Virus genome (UHGV): UHGV-1789045
Source of the DNA: a virus
Strand: one strand, 5' to 3'
DNA length: 12,500 nucleotides
Shown here: in pieces, positions 1,140 through 4,429 of the stretch
Layout of the letters: the number at the start of each line of letters is the position of its first letter
Numbering within the stretch: position 1 is the stretch's first letter
Program-made: the position numbers and the translations under genes
The notes under the pieces: model-generated
The model's input: only the letters and a program-made list of their open reading frames with translations
The model's database searches: none
Told to the model about the DNA's origin: nothing

Positions 1140-1433
1140 TCAGTCATTACTGATAGCGCCATAGCGTGAGCGGTAATTACGCAGGCGCTGGTCAATTTCA
1201 GGGAAGTGGGTATATGTGGCTTTGCGGAATGGTCGGATTGATGTCTGGTAAATTCGCTCGCGTTCTTCTTTCTCTGCAAGCCATATACAGTGGCGAAATT
1301 CCTTTTCCTCTTTCGTTTCCTGCGGTAGCGACATTATCAGGTCGTAGTTTTTTCTGAATTTATCCAGCACCTCCGATACGGAATTGCCGGAACAGCGGCG
1401 CGCGTCATCCGCACCATACAGAGGCGCTGGCAT
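1140..1433 (-). CDS. hypothetical protein, 97 aa
   Basis: Minus-strand ORF, 13-bp gap to the HNH gene upstream. Basic C-terminal half, no recognisable motif. Confidence 0.55.
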   Translation of the reverse strand: MPAPLYGADDARRCSGNSVSEVLDKFRKNYDLIMSLPQETKEEKEFRHCIWLAEKEERERIYQTSIRPFRKATYTHFPEIDQRLRNYRSRYGAISND

Positions 1434-1446
1434 GATTTTCTCCTGA

Positions 1447-1926
1447 TTAAATTGCGTGAATAGCGTGACGAGGGAAGGGGAGAGTTACTGGTTCCTCGTC
1501 TGGGTAGATAGGTTTGTTATGTTTGTGCCACTCGACATGACATGACTTGCAGAGCCACATCACATCGGTTGGTTTGCTGTAGTCGCAGTGGTGCGCCTGT
1601 GGTTTACATTCTGATCCGCAGCACTCACATTGTGGTGGTCGGATTAGCTTACCGTCGCGCAAAAAATTACCCACAATGATGTGGGCTTTTCTTTTCCATG
1701 GGTTGCTCTGAATGAACCGCTTTTTGGCTGCGTTACACCGTTCTCTTCCGCGTTCCGATGATTGATATTCTCTCCTTGCTGATACTCGATGTGGCAATCC
1801 AGCGCGTTCTTTGTCGTATTCAGCCAGGCAAGCCCGGCAAGCGGCAGTTAATCCATCTCTGGATGCTCTTCTGATTTGAAAGTCCCTTTCTTCCTTCTGT
1901 TGATGGCATCTTGAGCAGATTTTCAT
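1447..1926 (-). CDS. HNH-family endonuclease with N-terminal Cys-rich zinc-binding region
   Basis: 159-aa ORF. N-terminal CSRCHQQK...CRAC pairs, then CECCGSECKPQAHHCDYSKPTDVMWLCKSCHVEWH, which fits the HNH nuclease signature (His-His ... Asn/Trp ... Cys-x2-Cys-His ... His). Confidence 0.65.
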   Translation of the reverse strand: MKICSRCHQQKEERDFQIRRASRDGLTAACRACLAEYDKERAGLPHRVSARREYQSSERGRERCNAAKKRFIQSNPWKRKAHIIVGNFLRDGKLIRPPQCECCGSECKPQAHHCDYSKPTDVMWLCKSCHVEWHKHNKPIYPDEEPVTLPFPRHAIHAI

Positions 1927-1935
1927 ATTCAGCTC

Positions 1936-2409
1936 CTAGAACGGAATATCCGAATCGTCAAAATCCATAGGTGGTTCGCTGTGATTCCCCTGCTGCTGAG
2001 ATTGCTGTCTTTGTTGCTGACCGTTATTTCGCTGAGGTGAAGACTGTTCATTGCCTCCTTGCTTGCCACCAAGCATTTGCATGGTTCCACCAACGCCCAC
2101 GATGACTTCGGTAGTGAACCTATCCTGTCCGCTTTGATCCTGCCATTTTCTTGTCCGTAATTTGCCTTCAAGATAAACCTCAGAGCCTTTTCGCAGATAT
2201 TCGCTGGCAATTTCTGCCAGTTTCCCGCTCATTACCACACGGTGCCACTCCGTCTGCTCCTTTTGCTCTCCAGTTTGCTTATCACGCCATTGTTCTGACG
2301 TAGCAACTGTAAGGTTTGCAAATGCCGTTCCTGATGGTGAATATCTGATTTCTGGATCATGCCCAAGGCGACCAATAATGATCACCTTATTTACGCCTCT
2401 ACTTCCCAT
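1936..2409 (-). CDS. ssb: single-stranded DNA-binding protein (SSB)
   Basis: 157-aa ORF. N-terminus [23 protein letters not shown]... and [52 protein letters not shown] closely track E. coli SSB. Gly/Gln-rich linker and acidic tail ending [12 protein letters not shown]. Confidence 0.95.
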
Positions 2410-3117
2410 TTATGCCGCCTGTTTTAGTTCGTTAACTCTGATGTTCATTACCTGAACGCATTTAGCCTGCGCCTCCTCGTTGCCAGCCATTAATTGCCAG
2501 TCACGCTGATAACGCTCGATGAGTTTTTTCTTGTCAGTTTCTGTTGACGCATAATCGCTGAAGTCTTTCAGGATTTGTTCGCAGTCAACCGATGGAGATT
2601 TCTGGTTGGTATTTTCTGGTGATGGTTTGTTATCTGATGCTGGGATTGCCCATCCCGGAAGCGATGGAGGGAGCCAGTAAAATCCTGTTCCATCTTTCAG
2701 TTTTGCCCTGTGCCATCCCTGCTTTTTATCGAGAGATGTTTGTGCGAAACCTTCCTCAAGGTTATACAGATACCGACCGATTCCCCATTGAACGGCAGCA
2801 CGCTTCATTGCACCGGAACGACCACCTTTGACGGCTTCTACCTGCGTGTTTTCAGCAGCATCCCATTTGGTTACCCATTCGGAATCAATCTTGATTGATA
2901 TGCCGCATTCAACTCCGCCGTTGTTGGGAATATCGCGGTATTCATTGCGCCATCCTGCTTTGCCGCAAACATCGTCCAGGCGTTTCATGATTGCCCGGTT
3001 CGTGACATAAGCCAGCACCATAGCCCACACTTTGCCATCGCGTGTTTTACCGCTTTGCTGTATTCGCCATTCGATATCTTCAGGGCTGAATGGCTCATCG
3101 AATTTGTTCAAATCCAT
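2410..3117 (-). CDS. single-strand annealing recombinase, Rad52-family core with Erf-like C-terminal tail
   Basis: 235-aa ORF immediately upstream of ssb. The segment GKVWAMVLAYVTNRAIMKRLDDVCGKAGWRNEY fits the Rad52/Sak-type SSAP motif. The C-terminal tail ...YASTETDKKKLIERYQRDWQLMAGNEEAQAKCVQVMNIRVNELKQAA resembles my recollection of the P22 Erf C-terminus (memory only). Confidence 0.7.
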   Translation of the reverse strand: MDLNKFDEPFSPEDIEWRIQQSGKTRDGKVWAMVLAYVTNRAIMKRLDDVCGKAGWRNEYRDIPNNGGVECGISIKIDSEWVTKWDAAENTQVEAVKGGRSGAMKRAAVQWGIGRYLYNLEEGFAQTSLDKKQGWHRAKLKDGTGFYWLPPSLPGWAIPASDNKPSPENTNQKSPSVDCEQILKDFSDYASTETDKKKLIERYQRDWQLMAGNEEAQAKCVQVMNIRVNELKQAA

Positions 3118-3125
3118 AATTCACC

Positions 3126-3296
3126 TCAGAATGGACACGGCCCAAGGAAATAACGCTGATTTAATACTTCGACTCGGGACAAATTAAGGCATACCCGCAT
3201 TCCTTCGCGGTCACCATTATGGCGATACCAGAGAGCTTTCTGCGTGTACATGCGTCTCTGTAACTTGCTCTCCTTCACTGTGGTTGCAAGTGACAT
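3126..3296 (-). CDS. small hypothetical protein, 56 aa
   Basis: ATG at 3296..3294 preceded by a strong RBS (AAGGAG, 6-nt spacer). Translation MSLATTVKESKLQRRMYTQKALWYRHNGDREGMRVCLNLSRVEVLNQRYFLGPCPF. Overlaps the next ORF (3220..3375) in another frame, so only one of the two may be real. Confidence 0.3.
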   Translation of the reverse strand: MSLATTVKESKLQRRMYTQKALWYRHNGDREGMRVCLNLSRVEVLNQRYFLGPCPF

Positions 3297-3375
3297 GAAT
3301 ATCTCCTTCGTTACCGATTAAATCTTTCATCTGACGAATGAATTCTTCGTCTGACCAGTTATCTGTAAAACTCAT
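3220..3375 (-). CDS. small hypothetical acidic protein, 51 aa
   Basis: ATG 3375..3373 overlaps the stop of the Kil-like ORF in an ATGA arrangement, suggesting translational coupling. Translation MSFTDNWSDEEFIRQMKDLIGNEGDIHVTCNHSEGEQVTETHVHAESSLVSP. Weak RBS; overlaps ORF 3126..3296. Confidence 0.3.
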
Positions 3376-3494
3376 TTCCTGCGATACCACGGAAGGTTGA
3401 TGGCTGATTTCATCGCTTTATTTGCTTCAAGCCACATTTTTGAATCACCAATAAATCTGGCTATTACTGCTTTGTTTTGTGCTGCACGAAGCAT
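3372..3494 (-). CDS. Kil-like small protein, 40 aa (host-killing / FtsZ-inhibitor candidate)
   Basis: ATG 3494..3492. Translation MLRAAQNKAVIARFIGDSKMWLEANKAMKSAINLPWYRRK. Sits between cIII and the recombination genes, where lambda has kil. The FIGDxKM segment resembles what I recall of lambda Kil (memory only). No clear Shine-Dalgarno. Confidence 0.35.
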   Translation of the reverse strand: MLRAAQNKAVIARFIGDSKMWLEANKAMKSAINLPWYRRK

Positions 3495-3508
3495 CTGGTG
3501 ATTGATGG

Positions 3509-3643
3509 CTATTTCATTGCGCATAACGCCTCCAGTTGTTTCTTTGCTGCTCTGATTAATTGTTTAACTCGGCGTGATAATTCAGATTCGTGCGGGTAGA
3601 AAGCGGACATGACGCCGCTACCCGCGAACTGAAAGTGCATCAT
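3509..3643 (-). CDS. cIII: cIII-like protease-inhibitor peptide, 44 aa
   Basis: The track ORF 3509..3748 runs through a terminator hairpin. The internal start at 3643 has GGAG 6 nt upstream. Product MMHFQFAGSGVMSAFYPHESELSRRVKQLIRAAKKQLEALCAMK has a central amphipathic helix like lambda CIII (PSESLLERITRKLR...). Position after N and tL1 matches lambda. Confidence 0.55.
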   Translation of the reverse strand: MMHFQFAGSGVMSAFYPHESELSRRVKQLIRAAKKQLEALCAMK

Positions 3644-3708
3644 GGGTAACTCCTTCTGTTTGATTGCATAACGAAAACGCCTCAATTGAAGCGTTATTGG
3701 TATGCATA

Positions 3709-3733
3709 TAAAAAAGCCCTCACATTGGAGGGC
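3709..3733 (-). terminator. intrinsic terminator of the leftward operon (tL1-like)
   Basis: Plus strand aaaaaa-GCCCTC-acattg-GAGGGC (stem 3716-3721 / 3728-3733). On the minus strand this is a 6-bp GC-rich hairpin followed by a U-run. Lies between the 83-aa gene and the cIII-like gene. Confidence 0.5.
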
Positions 3734-3869
3734 AAAGAAGATTTCCAATAATCAGAACAAGTCGGCTCCTGTTTAGTTACGAGCGACATTGCTCCGTGTA
3801 TTCACTCGTTGGAATGAATACACAGTGCAGTGTTTATTCTTTTTTTTATGCCAAAAATAAAGGCCACTA

Positions 3870-4129: not shown

Positions 4130-4429
4130 TCAAATAAGTGGTTTGCTGCCTAATTTCATTTTCTGGCGACCAACACAAGTCACACCCATTTCACTGCGTG
4201 GCTTGCGGTAGTAAATACGGTTCTGTTTACGCTCGACTTCTTCTGCCTTCTTGCAGCGAAGGCTTCCGAGTGATGCTGCTTTATCTGCTCTGACGCAACC
4301 AGAGAGCTTTAGCGCAATTTTTCGCGCCAGTCGCTGCTCTTGCATTGCCTGTTCACGTTGAGCCTGTCTGCGTGCTCTGCGGCGATTTCTGGCGTTATCG
4401 TCAGCCAGATATGTAATGACTACTGTCAT
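4130..4429 (-). CDS. N: N-type transcription antitermination protein
   Basis: 99-aa ORF with GGAGG RBS. N-terminal arginine-rich motif DNARNRRRARRQAQREQ, as in lambda N and P22 gp24, the boxB RNA-binding peptide. Located downstream of pL and nutL. Confidence 0.8.
   Translation of the reverse strand: MTVVITYLADDNARNRRRARRQAQREQAMQEQRLARKIALKLSGCVRADKAASLGSLRCKKAEEVERKQNRIYYRKPRSEMGVTCVGRQKMKLGSKPLI

What the first reader, a model, noticed from the sequence alone, without database searches (positions are those of the whole stretch)
2410..3117. Recombinase appears chimeric: Rad52-type annealing core with an Erf-like C-terminal tail
The central motif (…RAIMKRLDDVCGKAGWRNEY…) fits Rad52/Sak-type single-strand annealing proteins. 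The last ~60 residues (…TETDKKKLIERYQRDWQLMAGNEEAQAKCVQVMNIRVNELKQAA) resemble what I recall of the P22 Erf C-terminal domain. If correct, a partner-interaction tail has been swapped between two unrelated recombinase families while the adjacent SSB was retained.
Basis: partly seen in the sequence, partly recalled or inferred. Interest (0 to 1): 0.4.

Follow-up and report, generated by a model that had tools for sequence, protein, structure and literature searches.

The report
Rad52-type phage recombinase with Erf tail
This phage DNA-annealing protein really does join a Rad52-type core to the C-terminal tail of phage P22 Erf, but the swap is common in E. coli and Salmonella phages and has already been published.

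Summary
ORF 2410-3117 (minus strand, 235 aa) has a Rad52/Rad22 core (Pfam PF04098, residues 4-136, E 5e-26; predicted fold matches Mgm101 and RAD52). A disordered linker follows, then a confidently predicted three-helix tail (179-235). P22 Erf has an ERF core (PF04404) with no detectable similarity to this core. Its tail is 63% identical to this one (BLASTP E 2e-30; 78% at DNA level).

Core and tail phylogenies disagree. Phage L's gene has a visible crossover inside the tail, so exchange by recombination is shown directly.

This is not new. The epsilon34 (PMC2629481) and phage L (PMC8023706-adjacent record PMC8022706) genome papers describe these Erf "domain swaps". The gene is 98% identical at DNA level to Sf6 gene 28, and the region occurs in 956 of 5,426 complete E. 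coli genomes.

Two parts of the interpretation fail. The families are not unrelated, because both belong to the Rad52 SSAP fold superfamily. "SSB retained" has no support, because every core/tail/neighbour combination exists.

One modest extension: the same tail also sits on RecT-family proteins such as Salmonella phage SPN1S RecT.

The tail's function is inferred, not shown. The likeliest role is docking to host SSB or the end-resection machinery. [quoted passage not shown]

The parts
2410..3117 (-). Complete SSAP (single-strand annealing protein) gene, 235 codons plus a TAA stop at 2410-2412.
   Evidence: ORF list. PHROG 1097 covers it end to end, E 3.5e-130. The 1.3-kb region containing it is 98.2% identical at DNA level to phages Sf6 (gene 28) and IME10.
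2710..3108 (-). Rad52/Rad22-type annealing core, residues 4-136.
   Evidence: Pfam PF04098, E 5e-26. The AF2 model has a beta-beta-beta-alpha core at pLDDT about 90. Foldseek top hits are Mgm101 and RAD52. The region is nearly invariant in 33 relatives.
2641..2709 (-). Beta-hairpin extension of the core, residues 137-159, with an invariant W148-x2-P-x-L-P-x-W-A-x-P159 motif.
   Evidence: Invariant columns in alignment A1. Strands at 136-139 and 145-149 in the model. Weak WW-domain-like match, E 0.1.
2584..2640 (-). Hypervariable, predicted-disordered linker, residues 160-178.
   Evidence: pLDDT < 50 for residues 163-176. Length and sequence vary freely in A1.
2413..2583 (-). C-terminal three-helix module, residues 179-235, shared with P22 Erf.
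   Evidence: 63% identity to P22 Erf residues 134-205, E 2e-30. Tail-only AF2 model has pLDDT 96 with helices corresponding to residues 179-192, 196-209 and 214-234. Profile hits to the tails of ERF, Rad52 and RecT proteins.
2402..2580 (-). DNA segment homologous to the 3' end of P22 erf. It is a mosaic block that begins at codon 180 and ends 8 nt past the stop codon.
   Evidence: blastn gives 78% identity over 179 nt. The three-way alignment places phage L's crossover near window 2550.
3126..3296 (-). Small upstream ORF of 56 aa, HK97 gp42-like, in the position of P22 arf.
   Evidence: PHROG 1723, E 9e-36. Window 3828..3125 is 97.7% identical to HK97 right up to the SSAP start.
1936..2409 (-). 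Phage SSB. Its start codon directly follows the SSAP stop, and it ends in DFDDSDIPF.
   Evidence: Pfam PF00436, E 1.7e-38. C-terminus and gene junction read.
1447..1926 (-). Cys-rich putative endonuclease.
   Evidence: PHROG 2340 'endonuclease', E 2.6e-47; no Pfam hit.
1140..1433 (-). Abc2 anti-RecBCD protein.
   Evidence: Pfam PF11043, E 6e-63. 96% DNA identity to HK97 abc2.

Best explanation
The gene encodes a two-part phage single-strand annealing protein. Residues 1-159 form a Rad52/Sak-type core, the part that oligomerises, binds ssDNA and anneals complementary strands. A flexible linker of about 20 residues follows. Residues 179-235 form a small autonomous three-helix bundle. This bundle is the same module found at the C-terminus of P22 Erf, HK97 Erf and some RecT proteins of enterobacterial phages.

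The chimera arose, and keeps being reshuffled, through recombination among co-infecting lambdoid and P22-like phages. The conserved tail-coding DNA serves as one of the crossover sites. The combination is now an established, widespread gene family (Sf6 gp28, phage L 'Erf', ES18 gp49 and many prophages).

Shown here: the domain composition, the homology of the tail, the incongruent histories of core and tail, and the crossover.

Inferred only: the tail is not needed for annealing itself. Instead it docks the annealing core onto another protein during recombination in the cell. The likeliest partners are the acidic C-terminal tip of SSB (host or phage) and/or the end-resection machinery. [quoted passage not shown]
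For: Domains: PF04098 at residues 4-136. The fold matches Mgm101 and RAD52. The linker has pLDDT < 50 and the tail has pLDDT 96.

Tail homology: E 2e-30 to P22 Erf and E 2e-9 to HK97 Erf. P22 and HK97 Erf carry PF04404 instead of PF04098.

Reassortment: tail identity is 75% window-P22, 89% L-P22, 54% HK97-P0124 and 30% window-P0124. Core identity is 80% window-P0124 and 93% P22-HK97.

Crossover: phage L is 93-100% identical to the window down to about position 2550. From there it is 93-100% identical to P22 through the stop codon and into abc1. The mosaic boundaries coincide with the start of the tail and with the gene's two ends.

A tail profile finds only 53 clusters among 1.84 billion representatives, and the match lies at the C-terminal end in essentially every real hit. 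The N-terminal cores are Rad52, ERF or RecT.

No phage accessory gene is constant beside tail-bearing SSAPs. The neighbours seen are ssb+HNH+abc2, abc1+abc2, gp40+abc2, ssb alone, and exoVIII+HNH. This favours a host-encoded or generic partner.

[quoted passage not shown] The Red-beta CTD is a three-helix bundle that is required for recombination but not for annealing, and it binds Exo and SSB (PMC5052646, PMC11611040, PMC9870868).
Confidence: 0.85

Rival explanations
1. There was no swap. The whole protein belongs to one family that diverged vertically from Erf, with the core evolving beyond recognition while the tail stayed conserved.
For: PHROG 1097 ('Erf-like ssDNA annealing protein') covers the protein end to end. 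There are 5,594 homologues, and the 120 best are nearly all full length. ERF and Rad52 share one fold superfamily (PMC9870868).
Against: The cores hit different Pfam families with no cross-hit. The tails are 63-89% identical in protein and 78-100% identical in DNA, which is impossible under uniform divergence. Core and tail groupings conflict, and all four combinations exist. A crossover is visible inside phage L's gene.
Confidence: 0.03
2. The tail is a DNA-binding helix-turn-helix-like domain that adds a second DNA contact, rather than a protein-docking module.
For: Steczkiewicz et al. [quoted passage not shown] The tail is a three-helix bundle with a nearly invariant arginine, R227.
Against: By my count from the translation, the tail has about 10 acidic and 9 basic residues, so it is not basic. 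No HTH family is hit in Pfam even at E <= 10. Neither fold search ranks HTH proteins at the top. From memory of Poteete 1983, DNA binding by P22 Erf maps to the N-terminal domain. The Red-beta CTD is known to bind proteins (PMC11611040).
Confidence: 0.08
3. The tail acts within the SSAP itself. It tunes oligomerisation and filament dynamics of whichever core it is attached to, with no external partner.
For: C-terminally truncated Red-beta shows altered multimerisation and filament properties (PMC5052646). No phage accessory gene is constant next to tail-bearing SSAPs.
Against: One module would have to regulate three different cores (Rad52, ERF, RecT) whose surfaces share no sequence similarity. 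The long disordered, hypervariable linker fits a tethered docking module better than a packed regulatory element.
Confidence: 0.12

Closest known systems
Sf6 gene 28 protein, phage L 'Erf', ES18 gp49, ST64T/epsilon34-type 'Erf' (Rad52-core proteins of P22-like phages)
   Same: Same gene. The region is 98.2% identical in DNA to Sf6 and IME10. The protein is 92% identical to phage L Erf over all 235 residues. It has the same architecture and the same position in the early-left operon.
   Different: Only the neighbours differ: ssb + endonuclease + abc2 here and in Sf6, against abc1 + abc2 in L. The last 45 or so codons of L's gene are of P22 origin.
P22 Erf (essential recombination function; Pfam ERF PF04404)
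   Same: The C-terminal 56-79 residues are homologous: 63-75% identity, E 2e-30. It has the same genomic slot, downstream of kil and a small ORF, and the same two-domain plan (PMC8022706, citing Poteete 1983).
   Different: The N-terminal annealing core belongs to a different sequence family, PF04404 against PF04098, with no detectable pairwise similarity.
Sak of lactococcal phage ul36, eukaryotic Rad52 and Mgm101 (Rad52/Rad22 family)
   Same: The core domain hits PF04098, and the predicted fold matches Mgm101 and RAD52 structures.
   Different: Those proteins lack this three-helix tail. Rad52 uses a different C-terminal region to bind RPA (PMC9870868).
[quoted passage not shown]
   Same: Equivalent position, after a flexible linker at the C-terminus of an SSAP. 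It is of similar size and is also a three-helix bundle (PMC9870868). It is dispensable for annealing but required for recombination (PMC5052646).
   Different: No detectable sequence or profile homology, probability 0.3%. It does not appear in either fold search. Partner binding by the Erf-type tail has never been tested.
RecT of Salmonella phage SPN1S and other Uetakevirus and lambdoid RecT proteins
   Same: They carry the same C-terminal module. hhalign probability is 95.8%, E 6.7e-9, with 31% identity over 58 columns.
   Different: The core is RecT (PF03837), and the module sits with an ExoVIII-type exonuclease, without ssb or abc genes.

Membership tests
Rad52/Rad22 (Sak-type) SSAP family, Pfam PF04098 | Sequence match to the family model above the curated threshold. 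| tested here: met
   91.9 bits against a cut-off of 20.3, E 5e-26, residues 4-136 covering model positions 7-153 of 153.
Rad52/Rad22 (Sak-type) SSAP family, Pfam PF04098 | Rad52 N-terminal fold (beta-beta-beta-alpha core). | tested here: met
   AF2 model with core pLDDT about 90. The 17 best Foldseek PDB hits are all Mgm101 or RAD52, probability 0.82-1.0.
Rad52/Rad22 (Sak-type) SSAP family, Pfam PF04098 | Ring or filament oligomers, ssDNA binding and ATP-independent strand annealing. | not testable with these tools
   Needs biochemistry.
ERF family, Pfam PF04404 (P22 Erf) | ERF N-terminal annealing domain. | tested here: not met
   No PF04404 hit at E <= 10, whereas P22 and HK97 Erf score 157 and 152 bits. 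BLASTP aligns only the tail. The protein is therefore not an ERF-family member, despite the database labels 'Erf' and 'Erf-like'.
ERF family, Pfam PF04404 (P22 Erf) | P22-Erf-type C-terminal domain. | tested here: met
   63% identity over 79 residues, E 2e-30. tblastn E 5e-24.
Red-beta C-terminal domain type (PDB 6M9K; Exo- and SSB-binding) | Small three-helix bundle tethered to the SSAP core by a flexible linker. | tested here: met
   Three helices, at positions 4-17, 21-34 and 39-59 of the tail model, pLDDT 96. The linker has pLDDT < 50.
Red-beta C-terminal domain type (PDB 6M9K; Exo- and SSB-binding) | Detectable homology to the Red-beta CTD in sequence profile or specific fold. | tested here: not met
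Red-beta C-terminal domain type (PDB 6M9K; Exo- and SSB-binding) | Binds the partner exonuclease and the SSB C-terminal tip. | not testable with these tools
   No complex prediction or binding assay is available.
PHROG 1097 (Rad52-core + Erf-tail proteins of enterobacterial phages) | End-to-end match to the family profile. | tested here: met
   E 3.5e-130, residues 1-235 against profile positions 2-251 of 251. The 120 best of 5,594 homologues all carry PF04098 and nearly all align at full length.

The most novel reading that the evidence does not exclude
The Erf-type tail is a self-contained, portable adaptor used interchangeably by at least three SSAP core families (Rad52/Sak, ERF, RecT) in phages of Enterobacterales. 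It is unrelated in sequence to the Red-beta CTD. It couples whichever annealing core it is attached to with one host factor, most plausibly the SSB C-terminal tip. If so, the tail rather than the core would set host compatibility, and it could be transplanted to port recombineering SSAPs between hosts. The three-family distribution is shown here. A general statement about shared SSAP C-terminal domains already exists (PMC8093625). The partner and the portability are untested.
Probability: 0.35. Interest if true: 0.45.

Novelty: already known. Interest (0 to 1): 0.18.

Why it matters
The finding is a textbook case of phage mosaicism operating inside a gene, at a domain boundary. It also explains why databases label a Rad52-family protein "Erf". 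The swap itself is already published for Sf6, ES18, epsilon34 and phage L.

The remaining value is practical. The tail is a compact, confidently folded module shared by three annealing-protein families, and its binding partner has never been identified. Finding that partner would bear on why recombineering proteins work only in certain hosts. A 2023 review (PMC11611040) states it is unknown whether annealases other than Red-beta use a C-terminal domain to bind their partners.

Tried and rejected
1. Searching the 5.8-billion-protein collection with the 62-aa tail alone returned only 15 short fragments and no architectures. I replaced it with a full-length search and a tail-profile search of the representative library.

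3. A tail profile against PDB sequences gave only a marginal hit to a colicin E2/E3/E9 coiled-coil segment (E 0.011), which I judged to be helical bias.

4. hhalign of the tail against lambda Bet was negative with a single-sequence template. It was still negative with a 22-sequence CTD profile against 52 tails.

5. I looked for one phage gene that always accompanies the tail (Abc2, Abc1, SSB, Arf, gp42-like, gp40). None is constant, so no phage partner can be inferred from linkage.

6. The genomic context of the RecT-plus-tail protein P0174 could not be examined, because its only contigs are about 1.1 kb. I used phage SPN1S instead.

7. The ES18 paper and Iyer et al. 2002 are not held in the paper library. 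The supplement of the 2025 lambdoid Rec-module survey is not held either. Their exact wording on this gene could therefore not be checked.

Full report
**What is there.** It lies in the early-left operon of a mosaic lambdoid/P22-like E. coli phage or prophage. The gene order, all on the minus strand, is N-like antiterminator (4130-4429), cIII (3509-3748), kil (3372-3524), a small HK97-gp42-like ORF (3126-3296), this gene, ssb (1936-2409), a Cys-rich endonuclease (1447-1926) and abc2 (1140-1433). No phage in the collection matches more than half of the 12.5-kb window. The recombinase region itself is 98.2% identical to phages Sf6 and IME10. It occurs in 956 of 5,426 complete E. coli genomes, where it is annotated "Rad52/Rad22 family DNA repair protein".

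**The core.** Residues 4-136 match Pfam Rad52_Rad22 (PF04098) at 91.9 bits against a cut-off of 20.3, E 5e-26. An AlphaFold2 model built on 33 relatives (mean pLDDT 83) has the expected sheet-plus-helix core. A Foldseek search of the PDB with this model returns only Rad52-family structures at the top: yeast Mgm101 and human RAD52, probability 0.82-1.0 for the 17 best hits. The core is nearly invariant among relatives. It is followed by a beta hairpin and an invariant W-x2-P-x-L-P-x-W-A-x-P motif at residues 148-159.

**The tail.** The model then shows a disordered stretch (residues 163-176, pLDDT < 50) that is hypervariable in length and sequence among relatives. Three helices follow (179-192, 196-209, 214-234). 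Modelled alone, the last 60 residues fold as a three-helix bundle with pLDDT 96 and pTM 0.81. The tail has no Pfam family.

**Comparison with P22 Erf.** I fetched the real P22 erf locus. P22 Erf carries the ERF domain (PF04404, residues 5-146, 157 bits). The window protein has no ERF hit. BLASTP between the two aligns only window residues 157-235 with Erf 134-205, at 63% identity, E 2e-30. Over the last 56 residues the identity is 75%. At the DNA level the similarity is 78% over 179 nt. It begins at window 2580 (codon 180, the first helix of the tail) and stops 8 nt past the stop codon. HK97 Erf has a more distant version of the tail (E 2e-9).

**Evidence for exchange rather than differential divergence.**
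- The groupings conflict. Tails group {window, L, P22} against {HK97, P0124}: 75-89% identity within the first group, 54% for HK97-P0124, and 24-40% between the groups.
- Cores group {window, L, P0124} (78-98% identity) against {P22, HK97} (93%).
- So all four combinations of core (ERF or Rad52) and tail (P22-type or HK97-type) exist.
- Phage L's gene is itself a recombinant. It is 93-100% identical to the window down to about window 2550. From there it is 93-100% identical to P22 through the stop codon and into abc1, while its identity to the window falls to 80-83%.
- Upstream, window 3828..3125 is 97.7% identical to HK97 right up to the start of the recombinase gene, where similarity ends.
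- The gene is thus bounded by mosaic joints, and it has another joint at or inside the tail.

**How widespread the tail is.** The full-length protein has 5,594 homologues. The 120 best all carry PF04098 and nearly all align at full length, down to 57% identity, across Enterobacterales. The chimera is therefore an established family, and PHROG 1097 models it end to end. A profile of 29 tails searched against 1.84 billion representative proteins found only 53 clusters, and the match lies at the C-terminal end in essentially every real hit. The N-terminal parts are Rad52-type, ERF-type (several subtypes) or RecT-type (PF03837; for example P0174, with its core at 27-183 and tail match at 242-285).

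A cultured example is the RecT of Salmonella phage SPN1S. It has a RecT domain at residues 36-195 and the tail at 234-291 (hhalign probability 95.8%, E 6.7e-9). It sits in a module with an ExoVIII-type exonuclease and an HNH endonuclease. Lambda Bet homologues likewise include proteins with 73-78% identical cores but unrelated C-termini. C-terminal swapping is therefore a general habit of these proteins.

**What is already published.** The epsilon34 genome paper states that its gene 36 "is called a homologue of ... [quoted passage not shown] It adds that parallel Erf "domain swaps" had been discussed previously, citing earlier genome papers that include Sf6 and ES18, and that these fit the known two-domain structure of the protein (PMC2629481). 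The phage L paper says L and P22 Erf are 89% identical in the C-terminal 55 residues and essentially unrelated (13%) in the N-terminal regions. [quoted passage not shown] A survey of SSAPs notes that members of different SSAP families share an additional C-terminal domain, attributed to domain shuffling between phages (PMC8093625). ERF, Rad52/Sak and RecT/Red-beta are now regarded as one Rad52 SSAP fold superfamily (PMC9870868, PMC2896510). The swapped partners are therefore distinct sequence families, but they are not unrelated proteins.

**The SSB claim.** P22 has no ssb. Its erf is followed by abc1 and abc2. The same Rad52-core-plus-tail gene is followed by abc1/abc2 in phage L. ERF-core-plus-tail genes are followed by the HK97 gp40-type gene in HK97 and Oslo, or by ssb in S9-5. 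The upstream small ORF (Arf or gp42-like) also assorts independently of the tail type. Abc2 is absent within 2.5 kb of the tail-bearing genes of S9-5, RCIP0098 and SPN1S. Nothing indicates that SSB was "retained" with either part.

**Mechanism.** The anatomy is shown: an annealing core, a flexible tether and an autonomous helical module. The role of the module is inferred. [quoted passage not shown] It is a three-helix bundle, is dispensable for annealing but required for recombination, and binds lambda Exo and then the C-terminal tip of host SSB (PMC5052646, PMC11611040). For P22, the published but untested model is that Abc2-modified RecBCD loads Erf onto resected DNA (PMC9836394).

Several observations point the same way. 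The same tail serves three different cores. No phage accessory gene is constant beside it. Its carriers that I could place come from phages and prophages of enteric and related bacteria. The partner is therefore most likely host-encoded or generic. The SSB acidic tip is the leading candidate, and the phage SSB here ends in DFDDSDIPF. The resection machinery is the second candidate.

The homology underlying this analogy could not be established. hhalign gives 0.3% probability between the tail and the Red-beta CTD, even with 52 tails against 22 CTDs. Fold searches give only generic bundles. The claim is that the tail works like the Red-beta CTD, not that it is a member of that domain family.

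**Verdict.** The phenomenon is ordinary phage mosaicism and is already in the literature for this very gene family. The only modest addition here is the explicit demonstration that the same tail also occurs on RecT-family proteins, together with the mapped crossover inside phage L's gene. The tail's binding partner remains an open and testable question.

Noticed in passing
window 2626-2733 (minus strand; SSAP residues 129-164): This stretch gives a weak WW-domain-like match to the PRP40 WW domain (E 0.1-0.14). Within it, W148, P151, L153, P154, W156, A157 and P159 are invariant in 33 relatives, and the model places a beta hairpin at 136-149. It may simply be the C-terminal hairpin of the Rad52 fold.
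   Followed up: partly
window 2413-2487 (minus strand; tail helix 3): The segment AGNEEAQAKCVQVMNIRVNELKQAA resembles a segment of the colicin E2/E3/E9 receptor-binding coiled coil (ARNQERQAKAVQVYNSRKSELDAA). The profile E-value is 0.011 against PDB sequences. This is probably helical composition bias.
   Followed up: no
window 1936-2412 (minus strand): The SSAP stop codon TAA is followed directly by the ssb ATG, which suggests translational coupling. The phage SSB ends in DFDDSDIPF, an SSB-Ct-like acidic tip, so anything that binds the host SSB tip could also bind the phage SSB.
   Followed up: partly
window 1447-1926 (minus strand): A Cys-rich 159-aa ORF lies between ssb and abc2. It matches PHROG 2340 'endonuclease' (E 2.6e-47) but no Pfam family. 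The epsilon34 genome paper calls a putative nuclease gene in the equivalent position of its recombination module 'unusual in this context' (PMC2629481).
   Followed up: no
protein P0151: This protein has a Dam-type N6-adenine methyltransferase N-terminus (PF02086) fused directly to an HK97-type Erf tail. It is probably a deletion fusion in a decaying prophage rather than a functional architecture.
   Followed up: partly
lambda Bet homologues P0201-P0209 and P0240-P0268: Many Bet homologues have cores 73-78% identical to lambda Bet but unrelated C-terminal regions, of at least two other types. Some are Bet-integrase fusions (PF03837 + PF00589, 307 aa). C-terminal swapping is therefore not peculiar to the Erf-type tail.
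   Followed up: partly
window 3125-3828: This stretch is 97.7% identical to phage HK97 (its terminator/cIII/kil/gp42 region). The identity ends abruptly at the start codon of the SSAP gene, giving a sharp mosaic joint at a gene boundary.
   Followed up: yes
literature: [quoted passage not shown] My profile-profile test with 52 tails against 22 lambda-type CTDs gives 0.28% probability. Either a different domain is meant or the homology lies beyond hhalign's reach. This is unresolved.
   Followed up: partly
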